Origin: Deinococcales bacterium
Lineage (GTDB): Bacteria; Deinococcota; Deinococci; Deinococcales; JAAFIG01
DNA: 64,000 nt
Reading direction: 5' to 3'
Assembly: GCA_043778225.1 (NCBI GenBank)
Contig: JAYWGM010000101.1
Span: forward strand, 1 to 64,000
Each line of letters starts with the position of its first letter. The stretch's first letter is position 1. Both the position numbers and the translations under genes were made by a program. Below the pieces are notes generated by a model. The model saw only the letters and a program-made list of their open reading frames with translations. It made no database searches and had not been told where the DNA came from. Positions 368 through 64,000 of the stretch are shown one piece after another.

Positions 368-489
368 AGCAATAACGGCTATCACTATTAGGTCTCGAGT
401 TTCTTCGAGGCTTTGTTTTTGTGTCAAGGCTGTGTCAAGAAATGCGTTTCGGCGCGTCATATACGTTAAAAAAGCCTAAGCCAAATGGC

Positions 490-518
490 TTGACGTTCAT
501 CGGGCAGCCTGATATGTT
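490..518 (+). promoter_or_regulatory. Sigma-70-type promoter of the peptide ABC operon
   Basis: TTGACG (490-495), 17-nt spacer, TATGTT (513-518). Confidence 0.55.
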
Positions 519-609
519 TACATGGTTAGCACAACTCAGGCTTTTGCTTTGAGACCCAAAATACTCGAGACGAGCCTTTTGGTAATGGCTACACCTTTAG
601 GAGGATGGC

Positions 610-2367
610 ATGAAGAAAGCATTGGTAGCAATAGCTGCATTGGCGTTTGGGAGCAGCGCCGCAGCACAAGCGTTTGTTCACCCCGCAAAGTGGAGCGCCA
701 CAACGCCCGCCGAAGCAAAACGTGGTGGTACACTTCGCGATTTTTCGATTTCGGAATTTAAGACCTTTAACCCGTTCACATCATCAGAAGCCTCCAATAT
801 TCCAGATGAAATCTCATCTAATGGTAATGGTTTCTTGAGATTTGATACGGCAGCCAATGATTACGTGCCGTTCATGGCTTCGTCGTACACTGTCTCGCCA
901 GATAAATTGGTTTGGACATTTAACGTCCGTAAAGGTATGAAGTGGTCTGATGGTAAGCCAATTGTAGCTGATGATTGGGTCACAACTTTTAAGATTCACA
1001 CTGATGAAGATGTGGGTTCTAACAGCTACGACGGCTTTTTTATCAACGATAAGCCCATTGTTGTTTCCAAAGTAGATGACGATACAGTGCGTATTTTGTT
1101 CCCAACTGTGGATGCGACAGCAGTCGCCCAAGCGGGTTTTGCTCCTTGGCCTTCACATATTTTTGCACCTGTATATGCCAGTAAAGGTGCAGCAGGTATC
1201 AAAGCCATGTGGTCATTGTCCACCAAACCATCTGAAATTATTTCTAGTGGTGCTTTCAAACTCGAGAGTTACCGCACTGGCGAACGTGCAACACTCGAAC
1301 GTAACCCATTTTATGGCGAATGGAATAAAGACAGTGCTGGTGGTGCATTGCCGTACTTAGAAAACTATACTTTTAATATCGTTAAAGACCAAAACGCAGC
1401 TTTAGCAGCTTATTTGTCTGGTTCGATTGATACTTTTGGTGTTCGTGGAGCAGATGATTTGCGTCAAATTAAGGCTGCTACCGACAGTGGTGGTCTGAAA
1501 GCCGTCTTGCGTCCTAACATTGGTGCAGCCGCCTCGAGCCAATGGATTGTTTGGAACTGGAATCGTAAGTCTGATCCTTTCAAGCAAAAACTTTTCCGCG
1601 ATGCTAACTTCCGTCGTGCCATGAGTCACGTCACCAACCGCACTGCTATGGCAACTATTGTGCTTGGTGGTTTGGGTCAACCAGCTTACACCAGCGTTTA
1701 TGCGGCGTTTACCCAATGGATTTCACCAACAGCCAAGAAATTTGATTACAATCTTGAAGCTGCGGCTGGTTTGCTCTCGAAAATCGGTTTCTCCAAGAAA
1801 AACAGCGATGGCTACTTGGTCAACCGCGAAGGTAAGGTTCTCGAGTTTGACTTGAACACCAACGCAGGAAACACCACCCGTGAAGCCTACGGTAAAATCT
1901 TCACCGACGAAGCTAAAAAGATTGGTGTGAAGGTCAATTTCCGTCCAATTGACTTTAATACTTTGGTTGCGAGCTTAACCTCAGAAGGCGAAGACCGTAA
2001 GTTTGATTCGATTCTGCTTGGTTTATCTGGTGGAAGCCGTATTTACCCACTGGGTCAGAATGTTGAACCATGCGGTACAAACCTCCACGCCTTTAACACT
2101 TCGGGTAAGTGCCTTGCTCCTTGGGAAACCCAAGTCACAGCCCTTTACGCCCGTGGTCGTCAGGAACTCGACACCACCAAGCGTGTAGCGATTGCTAAGC
2201 AAGTCCAAGATGTACAAAGCAATGAACAAGCATGGGTGTATTTGGTTTCACCAAACGTTCACTTCACTTGGAATGCCCGTGTGCGTGGCGAACTCCCAAC
2301 GGCAATTGCCAGTTCGATTAACGGTTCAAGAACCGATGATTTGGCTTTGACTTGGATTGCACAATAA
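610..2367 (+). CDS. Peptide/nickel ABC transporter substrate-binding protein (family 5)
   Basis: Signal peptide; GGTL...KTFNPF; WTFNVRKGMKWSDGKP family-5 motif; GGAGG RBS. Confidence 0.93.
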   Translation: MKKALVAIAALAFGSSAAAQAFVHPAKWSATTPAEAKRGGTLRDFSISEFKTFNPFTSSEASNIPDEISSNGNGFLRFDTAANDYVPFMASSYTVSPDKLVWTFNVRKGMKWSDGKPIVADDWVTTFKIHTDEDVGSNSYDGFFINDKPIVVSKVDDDTVRILFPTVDATAVAQAGFAPWPSHIFAPVYASKGAAGIKAMWSLSTKPSEIISSGAFKLESYRTGERATLERNPFYGEWNKDSAGGALPYLENYTFNIVKDQNAALAAYLSGSIDTFGVRGADDLRQIKAATDSGGLKAVLRPNIGAAASSQWIVWNWNRKSDPFKQKLFRDANFRRAMSHVTNRTAMATIVLGGLGQPAYTSVYAAFTQWISPTAKKFDYNLEAAAGLLSKIGFSKKNSDGYLVNREGKVLEFDLNTNAGNTTREAYGKIFTDEAKKIGVKVNFRPIDFNTLVASLTSEGEDRKFDSILLGLSGGSRIYPLGQNVEPCGTNLHAFNTSGKCLAPWETQVTALYARGRQELDTTKRVAIAKQVQDVQSNEQAWVYLVSPNVHFTWNARVRGELPTAIASSINGSRTDDLALTWIAQ

Positions 2368-2379
2368 GTTTACTACTGT

Positions 2380-2403
2380 GTGGGGCGGAAAATTCCGCCC
2401 CAC
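2380..2403 (+). terminator. Intercistronic stem-loop after the SBP gene (mRNA stabiliser or partial terminator)
   Basis: GTGGGGCGGAA-AA-TTCCGCCCCAC perfect 11-bp stem. Confidence 0.7.
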
Positions 2404-2426
2404 TTAAATAAAAAGAGAGTTCTTAA

Positions 2427-3410
2427 ATGCTTGGATTTATAGCCCGTCGTTTTCTTAATTTAATCCCTGTTTTTATCGGGGCTACAATGCTGGTTTTTTT
2501 ATTGATTCAGGCAGCCCCCGGCAATTTTTTGGATGAACGTAAACTAGATGCCCGTACCACAGCCACAACCATTGAACGACTCGAGCGACAATTTGGTTTA
2601 GATAAGAGTTTGCCAGAACAATATGCGCTTTGGTTGGGAAATTTTGTAACTGGCAATCTTGGAATTTCTTTTGATAGCAATATCGCCGTTTGGGATTTAA
2701 TTGCCCCGAAAATTGGCAACAGCGCCATTTTGGTTTTTGGCGAACTGATTTTACTCTACTTAATTGCCGTCCCTATTGGTATTTATGGTGCAGTCCGACA
2801 GTATAGCCTCGGCGATAAAGTGATGAGTTTGGTTTCGTACTTCTTTATTGGCTTTCCATCATTTTTCTTGGCACTGCTAATCATCTTTGGGCTGGTCTGG
2901 TTTAAGCTGCGAACAGGATCGTTTTTGCTACCTGTCGGTGGTATGACTTCTGAAAATCATGCTTCCATGAGTTTTATCGGTCAAGTTTTGGATATTTTAT
3001 GGCATTTAATTGCACCAATGTTGGCTTTACTTATTGGGGATATTGCGGGTTTATCGCGCACCTTCCGCGCTCAGATGCTCGAGTTTCTCGGTCAGGACTT
3101 TGTGCGAACGGCTCGAGCCAAAGGCTTACCTGAACGGGTTGTCATTTATAAGCACACCTTACGAAATGCGCTAACGCCATTTATTGCGGGTATTGGTGCA
3201 TTGCTACCAGCTATTTTATCGGGGGCTGGCTTTATCGAAGTGGTCTTTAATTGGCCTGGTTTAACCCCCGTTTTTTTAGAAGCTATTAATAGCCAAGATT
3301 TATATGTGCTGTTAAGCACAACCGCTGTTTCCTTGGTTTTATTGGTTATTGGCAATTTAATCTCAGATTTTCTTCTCGCTGTCGTAGACCCACGAATTAG
3401 GTATTTTTAA
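2427..3410 (+). CDS. Peptide ABC transporter permease (OppB/DppB family)
   Basis: FGLDKSLPEQY and DFVRTARAKGL EAA-loop; ends DPRIRY. Confidence 0.93.
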   Translation: MLGFIARRFLNLIPVFIGATMLVFLLIQAAPGNFLDERKLDARTTATTIERLERQFGLDKSLPEQYALWLGNFVTGNLGISFDSNIAVWDLIAPKIGNSAILVFGELILLYLIAVPIGIYGAVRQYSLGDKVMSLVSYFFIGFPSFFLALLIIFGLVWFKLRTGSFLLPVGGMTSENHASMSFIGQVLDILWHLIAPMLALLIGDIAGLSRTFRAQMLEFLGQDFVRTARAKGLPERVVIYKHTLRNALTPFIAGIGALLPAILSGAGFIEVVFNWPGLTPVFLEAINSQDLYVLLSTTAVSLVLLVIGNLISDFLLAVVDPRIRYF

Positions 3411-4564
3411 TGAATAACTCTACTGTCAATTCTATTTCGACCCCTGATGCTCGAGAGGGAATGGCTGCCTACAGCAAGAGTCGTTTACAGGTAGCTTGGG
3501 AGCAGTTTCGCAAGCATCAATTGGCTTTATTTGGCGCTTTGATTTTGTTTGCGATGTATGTTGGCGCGATTTTCTCTCCATTCATCAGTCCCTATGGATT
3601 AACGGAGTACAGTACCAGCAACATCACTCGGTTTCATCCTCCGACACAAGTGCGCTTTTTTGATGAAAAGGGTGCATTTGGTTTTCCTTTTGTCTATGCC
3701 ACAAAATCAGAACTAGACATGACGACTTTTGCCCAAACCTATGTAGAACAGCCAAATATCAAATGTCCAATTCGCTTTTTTGTATCGCGCCCCGAACAGC
3801 CTTACAACTTATTTTTTGTGATTCCCACAAGTATTCGGCTTTTTGCAGTAGACCAGCCTTGCAATATCTTTTTAATGGGGGCAGATTTGTATGGACGTGA
3901 TGTCTTTACACGTTTGTGGTACGGCGCGGCGGTTAGCCTGACGATTGGAATTTTTGCAGTCACCCTCTCAACTGTGATTGGTTTAATCATGGGTGGTCTG
4001 GCTGGATATTATGGGGGTTGGATAGATAACCTTGTGATGCGCTTTATTGAGATTATTGGCGCAATTCCAGGATTATTTTTGTTGCTGACATTGACCTCGG
4101 TGTTACCCCAAGACATTAACCCTTTGCTGGTTTTTTACAGCATCATTTTTTTGCTTGGGTTAATTGGTTGGGGGGGATTAGCACGAACCGTTCGTTCGCA
4201 AATTAGTGCGCTTCGTGAATCGGATATGGTCCAAGCTGCCACAGCCTTAGGTGCTTCAGAAGCCAGAGTTATCGCTGTTCATATGTTGCCAATTACTTTT
4301 TCGCTCTTAATTGTCGGTTTGTCGCTTGGCATTCCAGGTGCAATTCTGGCAGAATCAGGATTGTCTTTTTTGGGTAGGGGAATTCGTGAGCCATACTCGA
4401 GTTGGGGTTCAATGATTGCCCAAGCGCAAGAAGGTGGATTTTCTAGCATTGCTTACCGACCTTGGATGCTAATCCCCGGATTCTTTATTGTGATTGCTGT
4501 CCTGTGCTGGCAATTCTTGGGCGATGGTTTGCGCGATGCACTAGACCCTCGAAAGCGCCAGTAA
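3410..4564 (+). CDS. Peptide ABC transporter permease (OppC/DppC family)
   Basis: [31 protein letters not shown] motifs. Confidence 0.93.
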
Positions 4565-4652
4565 GGCTGATGGTGCAAGCGCCCACAAAGCCGACTATCT
4601 AAGCGCCAATCATGGTAGATTGACCGATATTCTTTTTTGGAGGATTCTAATT

Positions 4653-5669
4653 ATGGCAAATACGCCCAGCAGCAGCGAAACGCTGGTTGAGGTCAACAAC
4701 CTCAAAACCTATTTTTACACCGACGAAGGCGTGGTCAAAAGCGTAGACGGTGTGACCTTCCACATTCAAAAAGGCGAGACCTTGGCGGTGGTCGGCGAGT
4801 CTGGCAGTGGTAAAAGCGTTACCAGCCTGAGCATCATGCGTCTCATCCCTAGCCCTCCCGGTAAAATCGTGGATGGCACGGTCATTTTTCGTGGACGAGA
4901 TGGGGTTGCTAAAGACCTGACCAAGGTTTCTGAAGCCGAAATGCGAAAAATTCGTGGCAACGAAGTCTCGATGATTTTCCAAGAACCAATGACCAGCCTA
5001 AATCCGGTCTATACGGTCGGCGACCAAATTGCCGAAGCGGTGGTACTGCACCAGAATAAATCCAAAAAAGAAGCCATGGAAGTCGCCATCACGATGCTCG
5101 AGTTGGTTGGTATCCCCGAGCCACGCCGCCGTGTAACCAATTATCCACATCAGATGTCTGGCGGTATGCGCCAACGGGTAATGATTGCCATGGCGCTCAG
5201 TTGCAATCCAGCCCTGCTGATTGCCGACGAACCAACTACAGCACTGGACGTAACGATTCAAGCCCAGATTTTAGACCTGATGCGTAAACTGCAACGTGAA
5301 ATCGGCATGAGTATTTTGTTTATTACCCACAATCTTGGGGTGGTTGCCGAAATGGCAGACCGCGTGGTCGTGATGTACGGCGGTCGAGTGGTCGAAGAAG
5401 GCGATGTGGTCGAGATTTTTAAGCGCCCTAAGCACCCGTACACGATGGGTCTACTGAACAGCATTCCTCGAGTAGACCATGCCATTATGGATCAAAAGCG
5501 GCTTGAGGCAATCCCCGGCAATGTGCCAAACCCACTGTACTTACCGAGTGGCTGCGCTTTTCATCCGCGCTGTAAATATGCGATAGATGCCTGTAAAGAA
5601 GCGATTCCAGCACTCGAGGACACGGGTACCGGACATATGAGCCGTTGTATTCGTTGGAAGGAGCTTTAA
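4653..5669 (+). CDS. Peptide ABC transporter ATPase (OppD/DppD family)
   Basis: GESGSGKS Walker [17 protein letters not shown]-terminal [16 protein letters not shown] before ATG at 4653. Confidence 0.94.
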
Positions 5670-5670
5670 G

Positions 5671-6684
5671 ATGACTGCACCTGTTCTTGATAAAAAACCG
5701 ATAGCGACTTCGGACGTGCCGCTTCTCGAGGTCAATAATCTGGTCAAATACTTTCCGATTCGCGGTGGCTTGTTGTCTCGAGTCGTGGCTAATGTCAAAG
5801 CAGTCAGCGACATTAGCTTTAAGATTGCCAAAGGCGAAGTCTTGGGCTTGGTTGGCGAATCTGGCTCGGGTAAAACCACCGCCGGACGGGCTTTATTGCG
5901 TTTAATTGAACCAACTTCGGGCGAAGTCAAGTTTAATGGCGTGGATGTCGTAAAGCTCTCAAAAACCGAGATGCGCGAGTACCGCAAAGAAATGCAGATT
6001 ATTTTCCAAGACCCATTTGCCAGCCTGAACCCACGCATGACGGTTGGCGATATTATTGGCGAAGCACTTTTAATTCATAATCTCGCCAAAGGGCAGGCTC
6101 GAGTTGACCGCGTTGCTGATTTGCTCAAGCGGGTCGGACTTAGCCCCGACCATATGCGCCGCTATCCACACGAATTTAGCGGTGGTCAGCGCCAGCGAAT
6201 TGGGATTGCTCGAGCCTTGGCAGTTGACCCTAAGTTTATTGTGGCAGACGAGCCAGTTTCGGCATTGGATGTTTCGATTCAAGCCCAAGTGGTGAATTTA
6301 CTCGAGGATTTACAGCGCGATTTGGATTTAACGCTCTTGTTTATTGCCCACGATCTTGGTGTGGTCGAGTACATCTGCGACCGTGTGGTGGTGATGTACC
6401 TTGGTAAAATCATGGAAGTTGCCCCTAGCCGCGAGTTGTACACCAACCCTAAGCACCCCTACACCGAAGCATTGTTAAGTGCCGCGCCAATTCCAGACCC
6501 GACCATCAAACGTGAGCGAATTATTCTCGAGGGCGATATTCCTTCGCCCATCAACCCGCCCAGTGGTTGTGTTTTCCGCACCCGTTGTCGCTATAAAATT
6601 ACCGAATGTGAACACACCGTTCCAGAACTTAAAGAAGTTGCCCCGGGGCATTTCAAAGCCTGTATCCGCGACGACGTTTTGTAA
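5671..6684 (+). CDS. Peptide ABC transporter ATPase (OppF/DppF family)
   Basis: [37 protein letters not shown]. Confidence 0.94.
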
Positions 6685-8176: not shown

Positions 8177-8278
8177 GCGTCATCGGTGGGTCATGGCACC
8201 TGATGGGCATCCCTTAAAGCTGCTTCCTTCCGGACCTGACTTGGTTCGAGAGCCATCACCGCATAACGCCGATGACGC
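8177..8278 (-). ncRNA. ffs: Signal recognition particle RNA (4.5S)
   Basis: Minus strand contains GTCAGGTCCGGAAGGAAGCAGC (SRP domain IV); ends pair (GCGTCATCGG/CCGATGACGC); TATACT -10 box just upstream. Confidence 0.95.
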
Positions 8279-8322: not shown

Positions 8323-8856
8323 GTGAACCCGAAACTCGAGGTGCGCCCAATGCTCGAGATGCAGCCCAAAGACTGGGCGCAGTTCTATCGGTATTTTCGG
8401 GATAAAGAAATCGCCCAGTTAAACGGTGCGAATCCGATTTTTATGCCGCTTTGGTTATTCAAAAACATTGTTGTTGGCGAAGAAAAAAGTGGTGAGCGCA
8501 TTGGCTTAGCGATTTATTTTGACCAGATTTTTATTGGCAGCATCGAATTTTACGATATTCGTCAGCAGCCCAAAACGGCAGTGCTTGGGGTGCTGATTGG
8601 TGAAAAATCGCTTTGGGGAAAAGGCTTAGGGACACAAGCCTTGCGTTTGGCGCTCGAGTTTATTTTTAACAAAGATTTTGAGCGCATCAGCCTCGAGACC
8701 CTAGAAGACAACCAACGCGCCCGCTCGAGTTTTGAAAAAAATGGCTTTCGTTTTATTGGCACAAGCGACGCTGGCAAGCGCCGTTTTGCTAAATATGAAT
8801 TGTCGCGCAGGATGTGGCTCGAGTTATTTACAAGCCCAGCAAATCGTCAAAGCTGA
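8323..8856 (+). CDS. GNAT N-acetyltransferase (RimJ/RimL-like)
   Basis: IGEKSLWGKGLGT motif A and N-x-RA...FEKNGF; TACAAT 6 nt before GTG at 8323. Confidence 0.85.
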   Translation: MNPKLEVRPMLEMQPKDWAQFYRYFRDKEIAQLNGANPIFMPLWLFKNIVVGEEKSGERIGLAIYFDQIFIGSIEFYDIRQQPKTAVLGVLIGEKSLWGKGLGTQALRLALEFIFNKDFERISLETLEDNQRARSSFEKNGFRFIGTSDAGKRRFAKYELSRRMWLELFTSPANRQS

Positions 8857-10359: not shown

Positions 10360-11184
10360 GTGATTCGGTCACATTATCTTGAGCCACAAATAGTTCAGCT
10401 AAATCGTTTGAAGCCACCTTTGAAATGGGCTGGCGGGAAACGTTGGCTTGTGCCTAAATTACAATCACTTTGGCAGCAAAACCCACAGCAACGTTTAGTA
10501 GAGCCATTTAGTGGTGGGCTTGCAGTCTCACTTGGTTTGATGCCTCAAACTGCATTACTCAATGACATTAATCCTCATTTGATCAACTTCTATCACTGGT
10601 TACAACGTGGCTTAGTTTTTGAAATAGAACTGCGTTACGAGCGGTCATTGTTTCTCGAGCATCGTACTCGGTTCAATGATTTAGTACATAAAAAACTCGA
10701 ACAAACTAAAGAGGCGGCCGAACTCTTTTTTTATCTTAATCGCACGGGGTTCAATGGTTTATGTAGATTTAATAGAAGCGGCGAGTTTAATGTTCCTTTT
10801 GGTAAATACACCAATATCACCTATCCAAAAAACTTACTCGAATATAGGTATTATTTAGCCTCTTGGGTTTTTACTGTTGACGACTTTAGTGCAATGAATA
10901 TCGAACCAAATGATTTGATTTATGCTGACCCACCATACGATGTTGAGTTTACAAGCTATAATGCTGGCGGTTTTTCATGGAATGACCAGTTACGACTTGC
11001 GATATGGTTGAAAGCACACCCAGGTACAGTAATTGCTTCTAACCAAGCTACACCACGAATTATTGAACTCTATAGTGACCTTGGATTTCAAATTACAATA
11101 GTTGACGCACCACGAAGAATTTCTTGTGACGGAAATAGGGCGACAGCACGTGAAATTCTTGCGATGAAAACCATTTTAGACTAA
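10360..11184 (+). CDS. Dam-family (alpha class) DNA adenine methyltransferase
   Basis: PPLKWAGGK, EPFSGG, LNRTGFNGLCRFN...FNVPFG, DPPY. Confidence 0.92.
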   Translation: MIRSHYLEPQIVQLNRLKPPLKWAGGKRWLVPKLQSLWQQNPQQRLVEPFSGGLAVSLGLMPQTALLNDINPHLINFYHWLQRGLVFEIELRYERSLFLEHRTRFNDLVHKKLEQTKEAAELFFYLNRTGFNGLCRFNRSGEFNVPFGKYTNITYPKNLLEYRYYLASWVFTVDDFSAMNIEPNDLIYADPPYDVEFTSYNAGGFSWNDQLRLAIWLKAHPGTVIASNQATPRIIELYSDLGFQITIVDAPRRISCDGNRATAREILAMKTILD

Positions 11185-11568
11185 AGAAAAATAGAGTCTA
11201 AGCCAGTCTTCTAAGTCTTTGAACCAGACTACCTTACCTGTAGATAATAAATAACCAACCATGTTGGTGGAAAAACCATCTCCGTTTATCACAACCAGTC
11301 CTGCAATGGGCCAAGATTGAATATCTTCGATTGTTGATGGAATTTTTTCTTCGGCTGAACCACTTGTGCCTTGATACTTGCATTCAATTCCTAGTGTTTT
11401 TGTATTTGACGTGTTGCTAACAATTACATCAATGTAACGTTCTGCCCCCCAAATTCGTCGAGCCGCTTTTACTTCCGTTTTTGCATTTAAGCCGAGAGCG
11501 TGAGCCAACTCTACTACTTTTTGTTGAAGCTCTTTACCACTTTTGACTGCTAATCCTTTACCCGCCAT
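11176..11568 (-). CDS. Small PD-(D/E)XK nuclease, putative restriction endonuclease
   Basis: ID...IECKYQ...GSAEEK motif; convergent with the MTase and overlapping it by 9 bp. Confidence 0.75.
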   Translation of the reverse strand: MAGKGLAVKSGKELQQKVVELAHALGLNAKTEVKAARRIWGAERYIDVIVSNTSNTKTLGIECKYQGTSGSAEEKIPSTIEDIQSWPIAGLVVINGDGFSTNMVGYLLSTGKVVWFKDLEDWLRLYFSLV

Positions 11569-11685
11569 AAATCACCTCGTGACTACCTTAGCATAGCTTT
11601 TTATATGCTGCTGGTAGACACTAAATTTAAGTCGGTTTCTGTATTTTACTGATTTATTTGCCAGATTTTTTGTCCCTAAGGGGCT

Positions 11686-12060
11686 TTATCTAATTTGATG
11701 CACCAAGTCATTTCTCACAGCCAGCATAATAGTTTGAGGCATTATCTCTACTAACCAATAAGGTATTTCTGATACCAGTTCCTCTACGGGTAGCTCAAGC
11801 AAGGGAATGTAAAACCCATACACCAGCCCTTTAGGTAAACAGTACAAAGCGGTCACACGTAATTTGCAAACCATTTGAAGATCATCATTTATCCAGAAGT
11901 CAATATCGTCACTAAGTCGATATACCAATGCCTCTCTATCGTACCAAACACCCACTGAAACCAACTGTAACCCAATTTGGCGATTTGTAAGTTTCAGAGC
12001 TTGAATTTCGGATGGAATAAGTGCTTTCGTAAACACAACTGAGATTAGATTATTGGTCAT
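11686..12060 (-). CDS. Hypothetical protein
   Basis: 124-aa ORF in the AT-rich islet with TATACT 7 nt before ATG; no recognised motif. Confidence 0.55.
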   Translation of the reverse strand: MTNNLISVVFTKALIPSEIQALKLTNRQIGLQLVSVGVWYDREALVYRLSDDIDFWINDDLQMVCKLRVTALYCLPKGLVYGFYIPLLELPVEELVSEIPYWLVEIMPQTIMLAVRNDLVHQIR

Positions 12061-12168
12061 GGGCTAAAGTATAACACAATAATTGCAAGCAAGCAAGCAT
12101 TTAATTATGAAGAAGAGTTCTCTATAATTTTCTCAAAAGCAAGTACACTACTAAGAAGGTTAATAAAT

Positions 12169-12363
12169 ATGGAAAAAACTCGGATCGAAACAGAATTACA
12201 ACTAACTACTGAAGAGCGAGTTGTCCCCTTCAGTACCTATCTACGCCCAAGTCTACAAAAACGAGTCAAGCGCCTCGCCGTAGAACTCGAGACAACAGTA
12301 GCTTCGCTGGTCGAACAGGCACTCGAGGAATTTCTGGTGGCTCGAGAAAACCAAAAAAATTGA
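12169..12363 (+). CDS. Ribbon-helix-helix (CopG/ParG-like) DNA-binding protein
   Basis: FSTYL beta strand followed by two helices (RPSLQKRVKRLAVE, TVASLVEQALEEFL); AAGGT RBS. Confidence 0.7.
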   Translation: MEKTRIETELQLTTEERVVPFSTYLRPSLQKRVKRLAVELETTVASLVEQALEEFLVARENQKN

Positions 12364-18715: not shown

Positions 18716-21238
18716 GTGTCGTTAAAAGGAACAGGTTCTGGCGTTTTACCACCACTACTCGAGCAGTATGTCAAATTGCGTGACCAGTACGCCGAATATG
18801 TGCTGCTTTTTCAGGTTGGCGATTTTTTTGAAGCCTTTGGCGAAGATGCCGAGCGCTTGTCTAAGCTCCTGAACATTACCCTGACCCACAAAGCCAGCAA
18901 GGATTTCTCGACCCCGATGGCTGGAATTCCGGTTCGGGCTGCCGAAACCCACATCGAACGGCTCTTAAAACTTGGGCAGCGAATTGCAGTTGCCGAGCAA
19001 GTCGAAGACCCAAGCACCGCCAAGGGTTTGGTTGAGCGAGCCGTGACCCAACTGATTACCCCCGGTACAGTGGCACTCGAGGATATTTTGCGCGGCGAAG
19101 AGAATTTTTTAGCCAGTGTTGCCAGTGGTGACGGCTATGCGCTGGCGCTTTTGGATGTCTCAACTGGCGAATTTCGCTGCTGTCAAGTCTCGAGCCGTGG
19201 GGCGCTGTACGACGAACTGGCTCGCTATCGTCCTGCCGAGGTTTTACTTGCGCCTGAACTCGAGGACAATCAGATTTTTATGCAGGAATTCAATAGCCGT
19301 TTTCCGGTTATGCGCTCGAGTGCCAGTTTTTTACTTGCCGATGCCGAAAAAGCCTTGACCATGCAGTTTGGCACACCACCCAGCCTGCTGGAGACCACCG
19401 CTTTACGCCGTGCTTGCGGTGCGGTTTTAGAATATGCCAGTCGGGTTCTCGAGCATCCGAATTTGCCATCGGTACGGCGTGTCCAACGTTACGACCCCGG
19501 AGCGCAAATGCGGCTTGATGAAGCCGCGCTCAGGGCGCTCGAGGTTTTTACGCCACTTTCACCGACTGCCCCCGAAAGCGCGACGCTGTTTGGCGCACTC
19601 AACGATACCCGCACTGCCCCCGGTCGGCGGCGCTTAAAGGCGTGGTTGCGAGCGCCGCTCTTGGATGCCCACCTGATTAGCGAGCGGCTCGAGGCGGTGG
19701 CGTGTCTCTACCGTGAGTCCGAAAGCCGCAAAGCCATTCGCGCCGCCCTCTACCGCGCTCATGACCTCGAGCGCCTAGCGACCCGAGTGGCAATGCAACG
19801 CGCCAATGCTCGAGATTTGAACGCCCTGCTTCGCACCCTCGAACTGATTCCAGAACTCCAAGCCTTGCTCGAGCCACTGGAAACGCGCTTACTCAAGGAT
19901 TTACAAACCCGCCTTGACCCCATTGCCCATGCTGCTGAATTGGTGCGGGCGGCTTTAATCGAAACGCCGCCCTTGCGCTTAACCGAAGGCGGGTTTATCA
20001 AAGATGGTTTTGATGCCGAACTTGACCAATGCCGCACTCGCGCCCTTGAAGGTCGGACATGGATTGCCCATCTCGAGGCATCTGAACGTATCCGCACGGG
20101 AATTGGCAGCCTCAAAGTTGGCTTTAACAATATTTTTGGCTATTACCTCGAGATTACCAATGCCCATAAAAATCTTGTCCCCGAAGATTACCGTGCGGTC
20201 GCAACCTTAAAAGACCGAATGCGTTTTACTCGCCCAGACTTGCGCGAAAAAGAGCGCGAAGTGCTGCATTTTGAGGAACGCGCCCAAGCCCGCGAGTACA
20301 CGGTTTTTCTCGAGCTTCGCAGTCAATTGGCTGCCCAGACCGAGCGTTTACAGTTACTTTCCAGTGCGATTGCCGATTTAGATGTGATTGCCAACCTGTC
20401 CGAAATTGCCGCCAGCCGTGGCTACACCATGCCAACCCTGCTCGAGACGGGCGATATTCAGATTCTCGAGGCACGTCATGCAGTGGTCGAAACGACCCTC
20501 GAAAATTTTGTACCAAACGATGTGCTGTTGTCCGACTCGAGCCGAATTCATTTGATTACCGGTCCAAACATGAGCGGCAAAAGCACCTTTTTGCGCCAGA
20601 CTGCTTTAATTGCGCTGCTGGCACAGGTCGGCTCATTTGTGCCAGCTAAAAGCGCCCAGCTACGGATTTTTGACCGAATTTTTACCCGCATTGGGGCATC
20701 CGACGACCTTGCGGGCGGGGCGAGTACCTTTATGGTCGAGATGCGCGAACTGGCGCAGATTTTGCATGGTGTTTCGGACAAAAGTCTGGTCATTTTAGAT
20801 GAAATCGGACGTGGCACTGGCACATACGACGGTTTAGCCATTGCCCAAGCGGCGATCGAATTTTTAAGCCAAACAGGGGCGGCGGTGCTATTTGCGACCC
20901 ATTACTTTGAACTGACCAAGCTCGAGACCAGTTTAGCAGGGGTGGTCAATATGCACGTGGCTGCCGAAGAAGAAGCCCAAAATGGACTGCGCTTTTATCA
21001 TCAAGTTATGCCGGGGGCTGCCAGCAAAAGCTATGGGGTTCATGTGGCACAACTGGCGGGGCTACCGCCAAGCGTCACGGCTCGAGCCAGTGCAATTTTA
21101 CGCGGGCTAGAAAATAATGCCAAAGACAGCGCCCAAAGTATCTCGGGACAGATTCTCGAACTCGAGATTTCTAGGCTTACGCCACTCGAGGGGTTAGCGA
21201 TGCTCGAGAAATTACAAAAGCAATTGCGTGGACACTAA
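18716..21238 (+). CDS. mutS: DNA mismatch repair protein MutS
   Basis: LFQVGDFFE, ITGPNMSGKST, STFMVEM, DEIGRGT, SYGVHVA. Confidence 0.97.
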   Translation: MSLKGTGSGVLPPLLEQYVKLRDQYAEYVLLFQVGDFFEAFGEDAERLSKLLNITLTHKASKDFSTPMAGIPVRAAETHIERLLKLGQRIAVAEQVEDPSTAKGLVERAVTQLITPGTVALEDILRGEENFLASVASGDGYALALLDVSTGEFRCCQVSSRGALYDELARYRPAEVLLAPELEDNQIFMQEFNSRFPVMRSSASFLLADAEKALTMQFGTPPSLLETTALRRACGAVLEYASRVLEHPNLPSVRRVQRYDPGAQMRLDEAALRALEVFTPLSPTAPESATLFGALNDTRTAPGRRRLKAWLRAPLLDAHLISERLEAVACLYRESESRKAIRAALYRAHDLERLATRVAMQRANARDLNALLRTLELIPELQALLEPLETRLLKDLQTRLDPIAHAAELVRAALIETPPLRLTEGGFIKDGFDAELDQCRTRALEGRTWIAHLEASERIRTGIGSLKVGFNNIFGYYLEITNAHKNLVPEDYRAVATLKDRMRFTRPDLREKEREVLHFEERAQAREYTVFLELRSQLAAQTERLQLLSSAIADLDVIANLSEIAASRGYTMPTLLETGDIQILEARHAVVETTLENFVPNDVLLSDSSRIHLITGPNMSGKSTFLRQTALIALLAQVGSFVPAKSAQLRIFDRIFTRIGASDDLAGGASTFMVEMRELAQILHGVSDKSLVILDEIGRGTGTYDGLAIAQAAIEFLSQTGAAVLFATHYFELTKLETSLAGVVNMHVAAEEEAQNGLRFYHQVMPGAASKSYGVHVAQLAGLPPSVTARASAILRGLENNAKDSAQSISGQILELEISRLTPLEGLAMLEKLQKQLRGH

Positions 21239-50391: not shown

Positions 50392-50446
50392 AAACTGTAG
50401 GCAACACCCCTTGTTATACCTGATTGGTTTTCATAATATATGAAGC

Positions 50447-50532
50447 GGTCAACGGGAGTGCCGTCCTTAGAACACGGCTGAGAAATATCCCCTGAACCTG
50501 ACGCGGTTAATACCGCCGTAGGGAGCGTGACC
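50447..50532 (+). ncRNA. TPP riboswitch
   Basis: GGAGTGC...GCTGAGA...CCC-TGAACCTGA...GGTTAATACC...GTAGGGA consensus; hairpin over the SD just upstream of thiB. Confidence 0.93.
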
Positions 50533-50591
50533 AGACACCCGAGGAGACTCGAGGTCTGACGCTTCCTCTTTCGCTCGAAAGGGGATTTTTT

Positions 50592-59494: not shown

Positions 59495-59544
59495 AGCTTA
59501 TCATTTTGTTGGCAGACCAAGACGCAATTTGTTAGTATCCCAAT

Positions 59545-60243: not shown

Positions 60244-60779
60244 AGCTCTCTGGGGCGGTCTTGGCGGGTGGGCGTTCGAGCCGTTTTGGCACAGACAAAG
60301 CCCAGTTTATATGGCATCAAAAAACCTTGCTCGAGTGGGCGTTGGGTAGTTTTATAGGCTTAGAAGACGTGATGGTGATTGGCGGCTCGAGTGCCACGAT
60401 TCCCGACCCAGAGCCATTTCTTGGGGCGCTCCATGGTGTAAAAAGCGCCCTCGAGAATGCAGTTTACCCTCGGGTCGCCATCATGGCGTGTGATATGCCC
60501 AACCTCAGCCCCGCCTATTGGCGGTTTCTCGAGTCAGATAAAGCCGATATTGTGATTCCCCAAAATAAAAACGGGCAACTCGAGCCACTGGCGGCAATTT
60601 ACTCAAGGGCGTGTTTGGGGCTGGTGCAAAACGCAATTACTCGAGGCGACTTAAAACTTTCGGGCTGGTGGCAAGCCCAGACCGAATTCAGCGTTCGGGT
60701 TGTAACATGGCAAGAACTCGAACCATTTTTCCCGAGCGATATTTTTTTGAATGCCAATTATCTCGAGGATTTATCGTGA
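60240..60779 (+). CDS. mobA: Molybdenum cofactor guanylyltransferase
   Basis: LAGGRSSRFGTDKA, ACDMP, EPLAAIY, FLNAN. Confidence 0.88.
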   Translation: MKLSGAVLAGGRSSRFGTDKAQFIWHQKTLLEWALGSFIGLEDVMVIGGSSATIPDPEPFLGALHGVKSALENAVYPRVAIMACDMPNLSPAYWRFLESDKADIVIPQNKNGQLEPLAAIYSRACLGLVQNAITRGDLKLSGWWQAQTEFSVRVVTWQELEPFFPSDIFLNANYLEDLS

Positions 60780-62899
60780 CCCGCCTAATCATGATTTTTA
60801 TTTGCTTTTTCTTGAGTGCTGCCCGAGCCGAAACGCTCGAAACCCAAGACACCGCCCAATTATGGCAAGCTGCCCAAGCCGTGATGCTCGAGGTGGCTGG
60901 TCAAAAAATACCAGAAAACCCCGAGCCAGATGGTTTACGTGGCATTGTGGCATGGTTGCTCGAGCAGGTGGCTCGACCGCCGCCAGCTTGGTTTTTGGGC
61001 GGCGTTATTCAGGCTCAGGCGGGTTTAACTTTGCCCGATACTCGAGCAGCAGCGCGACGCATGGCGTGGCTACAAGCTAGGCAATTCCCAAGTTTAGCCG
61101 ATTTGAACCTGTCGGTTAGTAGCAACGCTTTTGAGTCTCGAGCCGAGTTTGGCAGGGCTTTTGCTGAGTATTTAATCCAGCGTTGTGGGCTAAATAAACT
61201 TAAAACCATCCTGAAGTTTTTTTATGCCAATTGGAGTTTATCCGATGCTTTCTTCGAGGTGCTGGGCGTTCGGCTTGAGCAATTATTTGAGGATTGGCGG
61301 GTTCTCGAGGTTAATCGTGCCACCCAACAAGCTGACCAACTCGAGGCAACTGGCTTACCGACTGGTGAGGTGGTGGCACAGGATTTGGGTACAACCGTTT
61401 GGCTTTCGGATACGGATTTCATCACTGTTCAAAGCACTGGCTTGTACCGTGGGCAAATCAATCAACCCAAGCTCGAGTTGCTGGCTCGTTTACCATCCGT
61501 ACCATCGCGCCTGAGTTTGGCGACCGATGGTGCTTTAATTTACTCGAGACCTCGAGCTTACGGCACAATTTCTGGCGAAGTCTTTCGGTTTTTGAATGGT
61601 CAAGAACAACAACTGACCATTGGCGCAAATTCCACCGAGGCTGTGGCAGATGGTGCGTGTGTTATCTATGCTAAAGCCGCCTCGAGCTTATGGCATTGGT
61701 GCAACGGTCTGGAAAAATTGCTTTGGACTGCCCCAAAAGGCTGGCGCATTGGGCATTTGGCGGCTCGAGAAAACAAAATTGCCATGACCGTGGTTCGTGG
61801 CACTTTTTGGGATATTGCAGTGCTGCAAAATGGCGTTCTCGAGTTGCAAACCTCAGATTTAGCCCACGATGAAACACCGATTTGGCTCGATTCAACAACC
61901 CTACTTTACTCGAGTGACCGCCTTGGCACACCGCAACTTTGGCGCATTCGGCTGGGCGAAAAAGCCAGCCAACAAGTCACCGCCATTCTGGGTGGTGCAT
62001 TTGACCCCAAGCTGCTGCCAAACGGGTTGTACAGTTTCTCGAGCTTTGCAGGACTTGGTACAGAAACCCGCTTGGTCAGTCTCGAGAACGGTCTTGCTGT
62101 CGCGCTTGAGTTTTCGCAAACCCAAATTCCCAATAGCCCAGTCCCAAGCCCCTCAAGCCTGCTGCCAGATATTGGTATTGGTTTCTCGAGCGGGATTGGA
62201 TTAGAAGCTAAAGGCAACAATGGTGTTTTGGCATATCGTCTGGCTGGCGGTTACGACTTATTTGGTGTGGCTGGTTTTGGCGCGGATTTTTCCTTGCGTT
62301 TTGCGCCATTCCAAGGCTGGCAATTGACCGCCAACGGCAGCAGCAATCAGGCTCGAGGCTATGGCATTTTGGCTCGAGTGACATGGTCTGGGACTGGCGA
62401 AATTTTTACGCAAAGGGTCGGCGTGGTGTTTTCGCCGTTTATCACGCTCGATAATGGTCTACCAATTGTTTGGTTTGATTTTGGGCTGGGGGCTGGCTCG
62501 AGCGACGCTTGGGGCTACATCACCCAAAACTGGCAACTTTCTACCCGAATCAACAGCCAAGCCCAATACAGCCTTGGTCTAGGTCTGGCTGATTCTCTGG
62601 CAGGCGCGACCTTCGAGACCAGTTTGGGCGCTTCTGGCACATTGGGGGCTGCGCCAGTCTTGTCAGCACGTTTGGCGGCTCGAGCCTCCTTGCCTATCTT
62701 TTGGCGCTTTGGTGATGGTGTGCTGAGTTTTGAGCGCTTGACGTTCTACACTTCTGGTTCACTCTCGAGTCGAGAAGTGGCTTTTTGGTTGCAAATTCTG
62801 CTGGATGGCGTACTGAATTACAACACGGTTTTTACACTTGGACTCGAGCTTGGTTACTCGAGTCGCGGCGCATGGGTCTTTGGGCTTGTCTGGCGCTAA
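60776..62899 (+). CDS. Exported protein with TolB-like beta-propeller and probable C-terminal beta-barrel
   Basis: Signal peptide; LLYSSDRLGTPQLW PD40-like repeat; alternating beta strands with terminal aromatic residues. Confidence 0.6.
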   Translation: MTRLIMIFICFFLSAARAETLETQDTAQLWQAAQAVMLEVAGQKIPENPEPDGLRGIVAWLLEQVARPPPAWFLGGVIQAQAGLTLPDTRAAARRMAWLQARQFPSLADLNLSVSSNAFESRAEFGRAFAEYLIQRCGLNKLKTILKFFYANWSLSDAFFEVLGVRLEQLFEDWRVLEVNRATQQADQLEATGLPTGEVVAQDLGTTVWLSDTDFITVQSTGLYRGQINQPKLELLARLPSVPSRLSLATDGALIYSRPRAYGTISGEVFRFLNGQEQQLTIGANSTEAVADGACVIYAKAASSLWHWCNGLEKLLWTAPKGWRIGHLAARENKIAMTVVRGTFWDIAVLQNGVLELQTSDLAHDETPIWLDSTTLLYSSDRLGTPQLWRIRLGEKASQQVTAILGGAFDPKLLPNGLYSFSSFAGLGTETRLVSLENGLAVALEFSQTQIPNSPVPSPSSLLPDIGIGFSSGIGLEAKGNNGVLAYRLAGGYDLFGVAGFGADFSLRFAPFQGWQLTANGSSNQARGYGILARVTWSGTGEIFTQRVGVVFSPFITLDNGLPIVWFDFGLGAGSSDAWGYITQNWQLSTRINSQAQYSLGLGLADSLAGATFETSLGASGTLGAAPVLSARLAARASLPIFWRFGDGVLSFERLTFYTSGSLSSREVAFWLQILLDGVLNYNTVFTLGLELGYSSRGAWVFGLVWR

Positions 62900-64000
62900 C
62901 GCTGCCCGATTTGTAAAATCCCAAGGCACATCTCATCCACTGTACCTTCGCCCCAAACGGTGTAGCGCGGTTTGACCCGAGTACCACCAATTTCGGGTTG
63001 AACTTCGGGTGCATTATCGTATTGGCAGGTCACCCGCACTTGGTCGCCGTTTTGTAGGTCTATCGGCTTCTCGAGCCAGTAACTGCTCTGCCAATGGAAA
63101 TCCCAACGTGGAATCTCGAGGATCGTTTGACTTTTGTTTTCGCGGACTAGCTCGAGTTTAATCGCTTGCCCAAGCAAGTGCATATGTCCAAGCATCCCGT
63201 AAATAGCCAGCTTGGCATCTGGGGCTAAACGCATCGGGAAAGTGCATTTGTTAATCACTTTTCCAGCCGAACCAGAAGTAAATTGCTCGAGGCTGCTGCC
63301 GCAGAAATTAACAAAAACTGGATTTTTGAACAATGCCGAAGTCCCATCGCCCATGCGGGAGGCTCGAGCATAGGCAGCATCGCGGTGGCATGGGTCGGCT
63401 GGGTCGGTTGGGTATGCGCCAAGGCATGGAATTTCGACTGGTGCAAGGATAATCCCCGAGTTCAGACGTTTGATTGGGGCTTCTTTGGGGGCAAAGTACA
63501 ATTCGGCTTTGCTTTGGTCAGAACCTTTACCACCAAGTAAATTGTAATGCAGTTGCAAAACCAGCACATCGCCGGGATTGATTTGTGTGCCAGTACCTTG
63601 GGGGTAATCAACGCTGCCCTGTCCGGGTGCCCAAACGCCAACAATGTTGGGCGTGCCAAGGTTATTGCCCGGTCCACCAAAACATGGGTAGCCAAGTCGT
63701 CCATCGGTGGCTTTGTTCTCGAGTTGTACTGCACTTTCGGCTTTGGTCTTGTCTATTTGAAAAATAACCACATGATGCACAATTTTTTTGTTGGCTGGCA
63801 CGATGTTATAGGCATTCATAAAACGCGATTCGGACAATTTAGGGTCAAAAATAAAGCAGCGATATTCGTCGGTCAGGCTGGCATCGGGCAGAAACTCCGA
63901 TTTTGGGCTTAAAACCATGTCGGGTTGGCGTTTTTGGCTGCTCGAGACGGCTTGGGTTGCCACAACTTTACCAAGCGGCGCACCCGCCCACGCCCAATTG
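62896..64000 (-). CDS. Copper type II ascorbate-dependent monooxygenase-like protein (5' end outside the window)
   Basis: DEYRCF, VHHV, QLHYN, GHMHLLG, WDFHWQ, DEMC; frame stays open to the window edge (NWAWAGAPLG). Confidence 0.8.
   Translation of the reverse strand, partial: NWAWAGAPLGKVVATQAVSSSQKRQPDMVLSPKSEFLPDASLTDEYRCFIFDPKLSESRFMNAYNIVPANKKIVHHVVIFQIDKTKAESAVQLENKATDGRLGYPCFGGPGNNLGTPNIVGVWAPGQGSVDYPQGTGTQINPGDVLVLQLHYNLLGGKGSDQSKAELYFAPKEAPIKRLNSGIILAPVEIPCLGAYPTDPADPCHRDAAYARASRMGDGTSALFKNPVFVNFCGSSLEQFTSGSAGKVINKCTFPMRLAPDAKLAIYGMLGHMHLLGQAIKLELVRENKSQTILEIPRWDFHWQSSYWLEKPIDLQNGDQVRVTCQYDNAPEVQPEIGGTRVKPRYTVWGEGTVDEMCLGILQIGQR

What the first reader, a model, noticed from the sequence alone, without database searches (positions are those of the whole stretch)
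391..63950. CTCGAG is a highly iterated palindrome (HIP1-like) throughout the window
Seen: CTCGAG recurs constantly. By hand I count about 22 copies in mutS (2.5 kb), against about 0.6 expected for a random hexamer. It occurs in all frames (Leu-Glu, Ser-Ser/Arg, x-Arg-x such as Ala-Arg-Ala), in genes on both strands and in intergenic DNA, so protein-level selection does not explain it. Known: cyanobacterial HIP1 (GCGATCGC) is the classic case and has been linked to cognate methyltransferases. Inference: an analogous methylation- or repair-driven HIP system, or a chromosome-organisation or uptake signal. Density falls in the AT-rich MTase islet (about 1 site in 10360-12160) and in the first opp genes (about 8 in 4 kb), so it may also date DNA acquisition.
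Basis: partly seen in the sequence, partly recalled or inferred. Interest (0 to 1): 0.8.

Follow-up and report, generated by a model that had tools for sequence, protein, structure and literature searches.

The report
Hyper-abundant CTCGAG palindrome, Deinococcales genome
The six-letter palindrome CTCGAG occurs about every 160 bases throughout this uncultured Deinococcus relative, is actively kept and created even at the cost of changing proteins, and resembles the cyanobacterial HIP1 repeat but without any shared methylase that could explain it.

Summary
Observation confirmed. The window holds 415 CTCGAG copies against 8.6 expected. The 4.03-Mb genome holds 24,877, which is 26.7 times expectation. 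Density is equal in genes and spacers and is raised in all three frames, 9-fold above a codon-preserving shuffle. The scan had already reported this word for this genome and its relatives.

New here:
- The unit is the exact hexamer: no informative flanks, no enriched one-off variants, all six positions alike.
- Copies are 70% conserved with a relative at 78.5% identity, against 31% for other hexamers.
- 69% of all Leu-Glu pairs are spelled CTCGAG, falling to 30% when another copy lies 6-11 bp away. This site-to-site interference spans about two helical turns.
- No methyltransferase ortholog or class tracks the 19 CTCGAG-rich genomes, and no Vsr was found.
- A weaker form of the same pressure exists in two GC-rich outgroup genomes.

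Best reading, at about 40%: a word read by a sequence-specific DNA-binding protein that marks "own" DNA. Low density correctly flags the imported methyltransferase islet, but not the old opp operon.

The parts
394..63946 (.). Field of 415 CTCGAG copies. Mean gap is 153 bp and median gap is 110 bp. In crude ORFs, 217 copies lie in frame 0, 66 in frame 1 and 63 in frame 2. Coding density is 6.46 per kb and non-coding density is 6.61 per kb.
18716..21238 (+). mutS, carrying 22 copies (8.7 per kb). 17 are Leu-Glu codon pairs, 2 lie in frame 1 and 3 lie in frame 2. 22 of 43 synonymous opportunities are used.
10654..12285 (.). The longest CTCGAG-free gap of the window (1,632 bp, GC 0.39). It holds an imported restriction-modification-like islet: a D12-class adenine methyltransferase (10360-11184, +), a PD-(D/E)XK nuclease (11176-11568, -) and an unassigned 124-aa ORF (11686-12060, -).
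610..6684 (+). opp-like ABC transporter operon, with low density (2.0 per kb in 610-4564). It is conserved across the family and is poor in the word in relatives too. It has few synonymous opportunities (4.3-9.7 per kb). Only the binding-protein gene is under-saturated (3 of 17).
31774..31786 (.). The closest pair of copies in the window, with starts 7 bp apart. This is an example of the rare close pairs. A spacing of 6 bp never occurs in the genome, because it would create the avoided word GAGCTC.

Best explanation
CTCGAG is a true highly iterated palindrome. A genome-wide, context-blind fixation bias keeps existing copies and favours new ones wherever the DNA can bear them.

Shown:
- The unit is the exact hexamer.
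- Copies are kept and made far beyond what codon usage explains, and they have inflated the Leu-Glu and Ser-Ser dipeptides.
- Density is the same in genes and spacers. It is lower only in tRNAs, in the most conserved segments, in genes offering few opportunities, and in imported DNA.

Inferred:
- All-or-none reading of a 6-bp palindrome, together with an exclusion zone that looks steric, points to a sequence-specific, probably dimeric, protein bound to duplex DNA.
- Each occupiable copy would give a small advantage at fixation, either through selection or through biased conversion when kin DNA recombines.
- The word would then act as a density-coded mark of 'own' DNA. The most plausible setting is DNA exchange and recombination, as is now proposed for HIP1.

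The cognate methyltransferase on which the HIP1 models rest was not found here.
For: Exact hexamer.
- Flanking positions carry at most 0.033 bit.
- 24,877 of the 36,442 TCGA tetramers (68%) lie inside the word.
- The nine one-off variant pairs sit at 0.15-1.40 times expectation, against 26.7 for the word itself.

Kept.
- In 285,276 aligned columns with G003 at 78.5% identity, 69.7% of copies are conserved. Other hexamers are at 30.6% and GC-matched hexamers at 29.8%. It is the most conserved of all hexamers with at least 300 occurrences.
- Given the same amino acid, CTC is kept 655/844 times inside the word and 254/758 outside. GAG is 681/833 against 364/776. TCG is 263/312 against 316/618. 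CGA is 196/286 against 172/455.

Made.
- 12,817 of 18,541 Leu-Glu pairs are spelled CTCGAG, although CTC is 18% of Leu codons and GAG 38% of Glu codons.
- Synonymous opportunities are used at 0.69, 0.56 and 0.42 in the three frames.
- Leu-Glu is the most inflated dipeptide (observed/expected 2.33, against 0.97 for Glu-Leu).

Context-blind.
- The profile is flat around ORF starts and stops, and shows no trend with conservation except in windows at 85% identity or more.

Interference.
- The hazard of the next copy rises from 1.95 per kb (6-12 bp) to 7.5-7.7 per kb (90-200 bp). Six control words have flat or falling hazards.
- The share of Leu-Glu pairs spelled CTCGAG rises from 0.30 to 0.79 with distance to the nearest other copy. 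This replicates in G003 (0.31 to 0.68) and in the window itself.
- Pair correlation is 0.28-0.45 up to 18 bp, against 0.57-0.91 for generic GC-rich inverted 6-mers.

Local turnover.
- Private copies of the two genomes are 1.36-fold enriched at 12-90 bp apart, against 1.12-fold for 300 control words.

Clade-wide.
- All 19 genomes of family f1 carry 4.3-6.8 copies per kb.
- Weaker signs of the same kind appear in two outgroup genomes, against a flat baseline in unrelated bacteria.

Analogy.
- Methylated HIP1 raises transformation more than 100-fold in Synechococcus PCC 7002 (abstract).
- HIP1 has been proposed as a clade watermark for DNA uptake (abstract and section 14).
Against: - No reader protein was identified. 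Nothing here shows binding, uptake or recombination.
- Selection and biased conversion cannot be told apart from these data.
- A 6-mer at one copy per 160 bp is about six times denser and much shorter than any uptake sequence I know of (recalled).
- Thermus uptake is reported to be sequence-independent (recalled, not checked here).
- From 24 to 60 bp the repulsion is no stronger than for generic GC-rich inverted repeats (0.83-0.88 against 0.87-0.91). Only the zone under about 24 bp is specific.
- The turnover excess is modest, about 2.7 sd above the control level.
- The two virus records rich in the word could not be tied to this family.
- Genes were called crudely, and the relatives are draft bins.
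Confidence: 0.4

Rival explanations
1. Binding site of an abundant sequence-specific nucleoid protein. Weak selection at each of about 25,000 sites maintains the word for chromosome folding or compaction. The function is internal architecture, not DNA exchange.
For: - Density is uniform and context-blind.
- There is a steric-looking exclusion zone under about 24 bp.
- The hazard reaches a plateau, and there are modest signs of local compensation.
- Positional conservation resembles that used to argue for selection on HIP1 (methods section).
Against: - No candidate protein was found.
- Nucleoid proteins with strict 6-bp specificity at this number of sites are unknown to me (recalled).
- Long-range periodicity was not tested, because the genome is in 107 contigs.
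- The old opp operon stays poor in the word in 6 genomes, which fits poorly with a need for even coverage.
Confidence: 0.22
2. Methylation-directed repair ratchet in the sense of Elhai. A CTCGAG- or TCGA-specific methyltransferase marks the word, and a methyl-dependent nick or mismatch repair fixes changes that create it.
For: - The model was built for HIP1 and the alternate HIPs (abstract and section 3.4).
- This genome has about 24 methyltransferase ORFs, many with native CTCGAG density.
- One of them (L023) has a TaqI-like specificity domain.
- CTCGAG-specific methyltransferases exist elsewhere (passages).
Against: Seven enzymes were profiled and none tracks family f1.
- L012 is patchy.
- L011 is confined to genus g1.
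- L023 is in 3 of 31 genomes.
- L027 has close orthologs in only 3 other genomes.
- L026 is in 2 of 31.
- L030 is in 3 of 31.
- L029 has no ortholog in 5 lean genomes, only 25-27% identity in 2 of them.

At class level:
- G010 (91% complete) has no C5 enzyme.
- The closed genome G013 has no PF01555 match.
- G002 and G012 have no PF02384 match.

Other points:
- No Vsr was found.
- The two cytosines change to T about equally often (97 and 109), and all six positions vary.
- Density is six times the roughly 1 per kb saturation that the model predicts.

Caveats: the genomes are draft bins, 13 ORFs were not profiled singly, and unrelated enzymes could share one specificity.
Confidence: 0.15
3. No reader at all: a by-product of codon-pair, translational or dinucleotide bias, or relics of a mobile repeat.
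For: - Frame 0 (Leu-Glu) is the largest class, at 12,817 of 21,702 copies.
- A fourth-order Markov model nearly absorbs the excess (21,466 expected). This happens only because the pentamers are themselves dominated by the word.
Against: - Density in spacers is equal to that in genes.
- Frames 1 and 2 are 11- and 15-fold above the shuffle.
- Flanks carry no information, so it is not a repeat element.
- The 122 distinct contexts among the 123 closest pairs are nearly all unique.
- The reverse word GAGCTC is almost absent, with 24 copies.
Confidence: 0.03

Closest known systems
HIP1 (GCGATCGC) and the alternate HIPs of cyanobacteria (PMC4390886: abstract and section 3.4 read; PMC5861425: abstract and conservation methods read)
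   Same: - It is a palindromic word, tens of times over-represented, in genes and spacers.
- It is positionally conserved between genomes beyond the background rate and beyond codon usage.
- It is clade-wide, and imported DNA lacks it.
   Different: - It is a hexamer, not an octamer, and occurs in another phylum.
- It is about six times denser: one per 160 bp, against about one per kb.
- No cognate methyltransferase is shared by the rich genomes.
- One-off variants are not biased to the outer positions.
- Proteins are visibly rewritten (Leu-Glu 2.33-fold).
- Short-range interference is shown here; I did not see it described for HIP1 in the parts I read.
DNA uptake sequences of Neisseria (DUS) and Pasteurellaceae (USS) (recalled, not read here)
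   Same: - Short words accumulated genome-wide in a clade, in genes and spacers.
- They are thought to spread by biased uptake and recombination.
- They mark kin DNA.
   Different: - Those are non-palindromic 9-12-mers at about one per kb.
- Uptake bias there is shown experimentally. Here nothing is known of uptake, and the word is far shorter and denser.
Chi sites (recalled)
   Same: An over-represented word that marks own DNA during recombination. Kamoku and Nielsen compare HIP1 to Chi (abstract).
   Different: Chi is an asymmetric, strand-biased octamer at about one per 5 kb. It is read by RecBCD or AddAB, which, from recall, this phylum lacks.
CCWGG excess through Vsr very-short-patch repair in E. 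coli (recalled)
   Same: A repair enzyme tied to a methylated site biases substitution towards that site.
   Different: - No Vsr was found.
- The deamination neighbour CTTGAG is not depleted; it is at 1.40 times expectation.
- The scale of enrichment is an order of magnitude larger.
XhoI, PaeR7I and BsuMI type restriction-modification on CTCGAG (recalled; predicted M. smegmatis pair, PMC7526240, passages read)
   Same: The recognition word is the same. Sister genus g7 of this order is nearly devoid of it, as expected of a restricted site.
   Different: Here the word is enriched, not avoided. No XhoI-family nuclease was found, though that search had no positive control.

Membership tests
Highly iterated palindromes (HIP class) | A palindromic word many-fold over expectation, genome-wide | tested here: met
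   24,877 copies against 931 expected. 9.3-fold over the synonymous shuffle.
Highly iterated palindromes (HIP class) | Present in coding DNA (all frames) and in non-coding DNA | tested here: met
   6.17 against 6.16 per kb. All three frames are raised 8- to 15-fold.
Highly iterated palindromes (HIP class) | Sites conserved between genomes beyond background and beyond codon usage (criterion of Xu et al. 2018) | tested here: met
   69.7% against 30.6%. Codons inside the word are kept 0.69-0.84 of the time, against 0.34-0.51 outside.
Highly iterated palindromes (HIP class) | A methyltransferase specific for the word or its core is present wherever the word is abundant (Elhai 2015) | tested here: not met
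   Seven enzymes and five classes were profiled, and none is common to the f1 genomes searched. Caveats: draft bins, and 13 ORFs were not profiled singly.
Highly iterated palindromes (HIP class) | One-off variants biased to the outer positions, revealing an inner methylated core (Elhai 2015) | tested here: not met
   One-off differences against G003 number 117 at positions 1/6, 67 at 2/5 and 124 at 3/4. Genome counts show no core pattern.
Highly iterated palindromes (HIP class) | Periodicity of 10-90 kb along the chromosome (Xu et al. 2018) | not tested
Highly iterated palindromes (HIP class) | Methylation-dependent gain in transformation | not testable with these tools
   Needs a bench assay (for HIP1).
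DNA uptake sequences (DUS/USS) | Preferential uptake of DNA carrying the word | not testable with these tools
   No culture is available.
DNA uptake sequences (DUS/USS) | A clade-specific word accumulated in genes and spacers and lacking from imported DNA | tested here: met
DNA uptake sequences (DUS/USS) | An asymmetric 9-12-mer at about one per kb, with graded tolerance of variants (recalled definition) | tested here: not met
   It is a palindromic 6-mer at 6.2 per kb, and one-off variants are not enriched.
Vsr-type very-short-patch repair drive | A Vsr endonuclease is present | tested here: not met
   PF03852 gave 0 matches in G000 (89% complete). The control rang in 3 named genomes.
Vsr-type very-short-patch repair drive | Depletion of the T-for-C neighbour of the word | tested here: not met
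   CTTGAG/CTCAAG is at 1.40 and TTCGAG/CTCGAA at 1.37 times expectation.
Restriction target (XhoI type) | A cognate nuclease is present and the site is avoided | tested here: not met
   The site is enriched 26.7-fold. PF04555 was not found, but nothing rang in the controls, so that half is inconclusive.
Dispersed repeat element (REP/MITE) | Conserved sequence beyond the core | tested here: not met
   Flanks carry at most 0.033 bit per position.

The most novel reading that the evidence does not exclude
CTCGAG is a methylation-independent, density-coded 'self' watermark of Deinococcales DNA. A conserved protein of the uptake, recombination or defence machinery reads it. DNA is treated as kin according to how many occupiable copies it carries per few hundred bases. 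The pressure is order-wide and graded: strong in this family, weak in the Thermus-like G025 and in G290, and reversed in genus g7, where the word is nearly absent and probably restricted.
Probability: 0.2. Interest if true: 0.9.

Novelty: new variant of a known kind. Interest (0 to 1): 0.75.

Why it matters
HIP1 has been an open puzzle for three decades, and so far only cyanobacteria show the phenomenon. Here is an independent case in another phylum. It is six times denser, it visibly rewrites proteins, and it apparently has no shared methylase.

This case separates what is general about such words from what may be particular to cyanobacteria:
- General: reading of the exact word, positional maintenance, and absence from imported DNA.
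- Possibly particular to cyanobacteria: orphan methylases and an inner methylated core.

The short-range interference gives any future mechanism a number to explain. The weaker form in cultivable GC-rich relatives would make the question testable at the bench.

Practical uses:
- The word flags imported DNA, with caveats.
- It biases codon and dipeptide statistics, which annotation and phylogenetic models should take into account.

Tried and rejected
1. Methyltransferase candidates. L011, L012, L023 (TaqI-like domain), L026, L027, L030 and L029 were each profiled and none tracks the family. NCBIfam and Pfam gave no specificities. The PDB search for L023 found only generic gamma-class relatives.

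2. XhoI nuclease family PF04555. No match was found, and there was no positive control, so this is uninformative.

3. Hairpin avoidance as the cause of interference. Generic GC-rich inverted 6-mers are depleted only at 6-11 bp. This can explain the weak tail from 24 to 60 bp, but not the zone under 24 bp.

4. Variable protein segments as the cause of the turnover signal. Controls show 1.12-fold against 1.36-fold, so they explain only part of it.

5. Viruses as a test of restriction against mimicry. Two records rich in the word (G031, G035) have GC 0.59-0.63, and their palindrome profiles are uncorrelated with this genome (Spearman 0.13 and -0.02). They are not used as evidence.

6. Public runs. 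Only assembled contigs of what is probably the source study were offered. Contigs hide rare variants, so read laying was not used and no population test was made.

7. Fourth-order Markov expectation (ratio 1.16). Rejected as a null model, because the pentamers are themselves made of the word.

8. Polarised gain and loss with an outgroup. Not attempted: same-genus relatives are 72-83% identical with little synteny, and the result would not separate selection from biased conversion.


Full report

The window has 415 CTCGAG copies. 100 dinucleotide-preserving shuffles gave a mean of 8.55 (sd 2.67, maximum 19).

The whole genome (107 contigs, 4.03 Mb, GC 48.7%) has 24,877 copies against 931 expected, one per 162 bp. 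CTCGAG is the commonest hexamer. Many other hexamer palindromes are nearly absent. GGCGCC occurs 3 times, GGGCCC once, AGGCCT once and GACGTC once. The reversed word GAGCTC occurs 24 times.

The scan had noted the word before, in another piece of this genome and in related genomes. One of those notes carries the mark 'part of it fell'; I could not see which part. I therefore re-derived everything used below.

**It is not a protein or codon effect**

I worked on 3,280 crude ORFs, taken as longest non-overlapping ORFs of at least 120 aa.
- Shuffling synonymous codons within genes gives 2,261-2,426 copies, against 21,702 observed.
- All three frames are raised 8- to 15-fold.
- Coding and non-coding densities are 6.17 and 6.16 per kb.
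- 12,817 of 18,541 Leu-Glu pairs are spelled CTCGAG, although CTC is 18% of Leu codons and GAG 38% of Glu codons.
- Synonymous opportunities are used at 0.69, 0.56 and 0.42 in frames 0, 1 and 2.
- Leu-Glu is the most inflated dipeptide of the proteome (observed/expected 2.33, against 0.97 for Glu-Leu). Ser-Ser is at 1.58. The word has therefore changed protein sequences.

Density is flat around ORF starts and stops. It does not depend on conservation, except in windows at 85% identity or more, where it is 4.3 per kb. The 68 tRNA genes hold 6 copies where 33 would be expected at the genome's density.

**Anatomy of the word**

- Flanking positions carry at most 0.033 bit.
- 68% of all TCGA tetramers lie inside CTCGAG.
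- The nine one-off variant pairs sit at 0.15-1.40 times expectation, and the three transition neighbours are the highest.
- There is no gradient towards the word: only the perfect hexamer is favoured.
- The four palindromic 8-mer extensions are all below their margins, and CCTCGAGG is at 0.30.

**Copies are maintained**

400 kb of the same-genus genome G003 gave 285,276 aligned columns at 78.5% identity.
- 1,131 copies are shared, 646 are private to G000 and 387 are private to G003.
- Conservation is 69.7%, against 30.6% for all other hexamers and 29.8% for GC-matched ones. It is the highest of any hexamer with at least 300 occurrences.
- Given an unchanged amino acid, codons inside the word are kept far more often than the same codons outside: CTC 0.776 against 0.335, GAG 0.818 against 0.469, TCG 0.843 against 0.511, and CGA 0.685 against 0.378.
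- Where a copy is private, 308 of 1,033 aligned hexamers differ at one base. These differences fall on all positions (117 at 1/6, 67 at 2/5, 124 at 3/4), and 257 of them are transitions. The two cytosines change to T about equally often, 97 and 109 times.

**Copies interfere with each other**

This is the main new result.
- The hazard of meeting the next copy rises from 1.95 per kb at 6-12 bp to 7.5-7.7 per kb at 90-200 bp. It then falls as heterogeneity takes over. Six control words show only flat or falling hazards, which is all that a mixture of Poisson rates can give.
- With the protein sequence fixed, the share of Leu-Glu pairs spelled CTCGAG is 0.30 when another copy lies 6-11 bp away. 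It then runs 0.42, 0.59, 0.65, 0.68, 0.71 and 0.75, reaching 0.78-0.79 at 90-199 bp.
- The same is seen in G003 (0.31, 0.53, 0.58, 0.68) and within the window alone. It is weak in the two outgroup genomes.
- Pair correlation is 0.32, 0.28, 0.45, 0.70 and 0.84 for 6-9, 9-12, 12-18, 18-24 and 24-30 bp. Generic GC-rich inverted 6-mers give 0.57, 0.67, 0.91, 0.99 and 0.91.
- So the specific exclusion covers about two helical turns, and the weak tail beyond is no greater than generic.
- Spacing 6 never occurs, because it would create GAGCTC.
- Private copies of G000 and G003 are 1.36-fold enriched at 12-90 bp from each other, against 1.12-fold for 300 control words. That is about 2.7 sd above the control level, a modest sign of local replacement.

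**Distribution**

- All 19 genomes of family f1, this one included, have 4.3-6.8 copies per kb.
- The 12 genomes of four other families have 0.03-2.9 per kb (genome sizes are rounded).
- A fixed-spacing pair pattern run over 301 genomes of the order gives 31-80 pairs per Mb in f1.
- In genus g7, only 7 of 86 genomes have any match.

I fetched 200 kb from each of two of those GC-rich genomes. Values below are, with the unrelated GC-rich baseline.

| Measure | G025 | G290 | Baseline: 19 unrelated GC-rich loci, 186 kb |
|---|---|---|---|
| Share of Leu-Glu spelled CTCGAG | 0.67 | 0.75 | 0.31 |
| Predicted from codon frequencies | 0.36 | 0.22 | 0.24 |
| Copies relative to synonymous shuffle | 2.0-fold | 3.2-fold | not measured |
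| Leu-Glu observed/expected | 1.56 | 2.10 | 1.01 |
| Copies per kb | 3.09 | 3.88 | 0.85 |

So the pressure is graded across the order and is not confined to f1. Record titles call the closest named relatives uncultured Deinococcales or Deinococcota bins.

**Search for a cognate enzyme**

The genome has about 24 methyltransferase ORFs, many with native CTCGAG density. It has no Vsr.

Profiles of individual enzymes:

| Enzyme | Type | Result |
|---|---|---|
| L012 | C5 | patchy over 31 genomes |
| L011 | C5 | genus g1 only |
| L023 | gamma N6 with TaqI-like domain | 3 of 31 genomes |
| L027 | — | close orthologs in 3 other genomes |
| L026 | — | 2 of 31 genomes |
| L030 | D12 | 3 of 31 genomes |
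| L029 | Dam | only 25-27% matches, in 2 of 5 lean genomes |

By class:
- PF00145 is found in 17 of 18 other f1 genomes, with none in G010.
- PF01555 is found in 15 of 18, with none in the closed genome G013.
- PF02384 is found in 16 of 18.
- PF07669 and PF02086 match all 5 lean genomes, but through unrelated or weak hits.

Thirteen ORFs were not profiled singly. The class results exclude the C5 and beta-class ones among them from being universal. Draft bins and non-orthologous enzymes with one shared specificity remain as caveats.

**The dating idea**

- Of the 19 gaps of 1.5 kb or more, 13 have GC below 0.40. The window's islet is one of them.
- The islet's methyltransferase has only two 68% matches elsewhere. 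It sits beside a PD-(D/E)XK nuclease.
- The opp operon is syntenic at 75-76% identity in six same-genus genomes and is recognisable in other genera.
- The opp operon is poor in the word in all 5 relatives fetched, at 2.3-3.1 per kb.
- Its permease and ATPase genes offer few opportunities (4.3-8.9 per kb, against 13-17 in mutS-like genes), but they use 0.40-0.67 of them. Only the binding-protein gene is under-saturated, at 3 of 17.

Density therefore mixes protein constraint with residence time.

**Interpretation**

Shown:
- The exact word is read as a unit.
- Copies are both maintained and created.
- The pressure is blind to context.
- There is short-range interference.
- The distribution is clade-wide and graded.

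Inferred:
- A sequence-specific duplex-binding protein reads the word, and its benefit is limited by occupancy.
- This acts through selection or through biased conversion. These data cannot tell the two apart.

By analogy with recent HIP1 work, I favour a mark of own DNA used in exchange or recombination, at about 40%. In that work, transformation is enhanced when HIP1 is methylated (abstract), and HIP1 is proposed as a clade watermark for uptake. The rivals are a nucleoid-architecture role (about 22%), the methylation-directed repair ratchet (about 15%), and no reader at all (about 3%). The rest is unassigned.

**Literature**

Four searches found no report of CTCGAG hyper-abundance. The HIP search lists only cyanobacterial work. 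Subscription journals are largely outside that library.

Noticed in passing
whole genome G000 (window shows the same; the single GAGCTC is at 14649-14654): Extreme avoidance of other hexamer palindromes. 33 of the 64 lie below 0.1 times expectation, for example GGCGCC 3 copies, GGGCCC 1, AGGCCT 1, GACGTC 1, CTGCAG 13 and GAGCTC 24. This fits a very heavy restriction-modification history; about 24 methyltransferase ORFs were found.
   Followed up: partly
whole genome G000: The 8-mer palindrome CCTCGAGG is specifically depleted among CTCGAG contexts: 243 copies, 0.30 of the value expected from its margins. In line with this, Pro-Arg-Gly is spelled through the word in only 12 of 142 cases, against 0.5-0.7 for similar tripeptides.
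   Followed up: no
whole genome G000: TTCGAA occurs only 34 times in 4 Mb, and 13 of those copies lie inside tRNA genes (T-arm).
   Followed up: no
L268:1-320 and L273 end (virus record G035, 110,308 bp, direct terminal repeats): Both ends of this GC-rich environmental virus genome carry an array of a 15-bp unit containing CTCGAG, with eight regular copies followed by looser ones. The genome has 318 CTCGAG copies and no GAGCTC. The host is unknown, and the virus is not evidently tied to this family.
   Followed up: partly
G000:C99:39125-40366 (L013): A C5 cytosine methyltransferase fused to an N-terminal MerR-type helix-turn-helix domain.
   Followed up: no
G000:C1:34616-37834 (L027) and G000:C99:49951-52971 (L024): Two proteins of about 1,000-1,070 aa have a weak N6 methyltransferase domain and a strong Type ISP C-terminal specificity domain. 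Pfam found no helicase or nuclease domain in them. Both have native CTCGAG density.
   Followed up: partly
window 8177-8275 (-), 50444-50542 (+), 31-109 (+): Signal-recognition-particle RNA, a TPP riboswitch and a tRNA. None of them contains CTCGAG.
   Followed up: yes
window 8828-10276 (-): An XPB/Rad25-like helicase with an XPB damage-recognition domain lies next to the imported methyltransferase islet. The helicase itself is conserved across the family.
   Followed up: partly
genus g7 of family f3 (86 genomes; G020, G024, G028): CTCGAG is nearly absent there: 128-457 copies in 4.2-4.8 Mb. This is the opposite extreme within the same order and suggests a CTCGAG-cutting restriction system. 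Genus g56 of the same family (G290) is enriched.
   Followed up: partly
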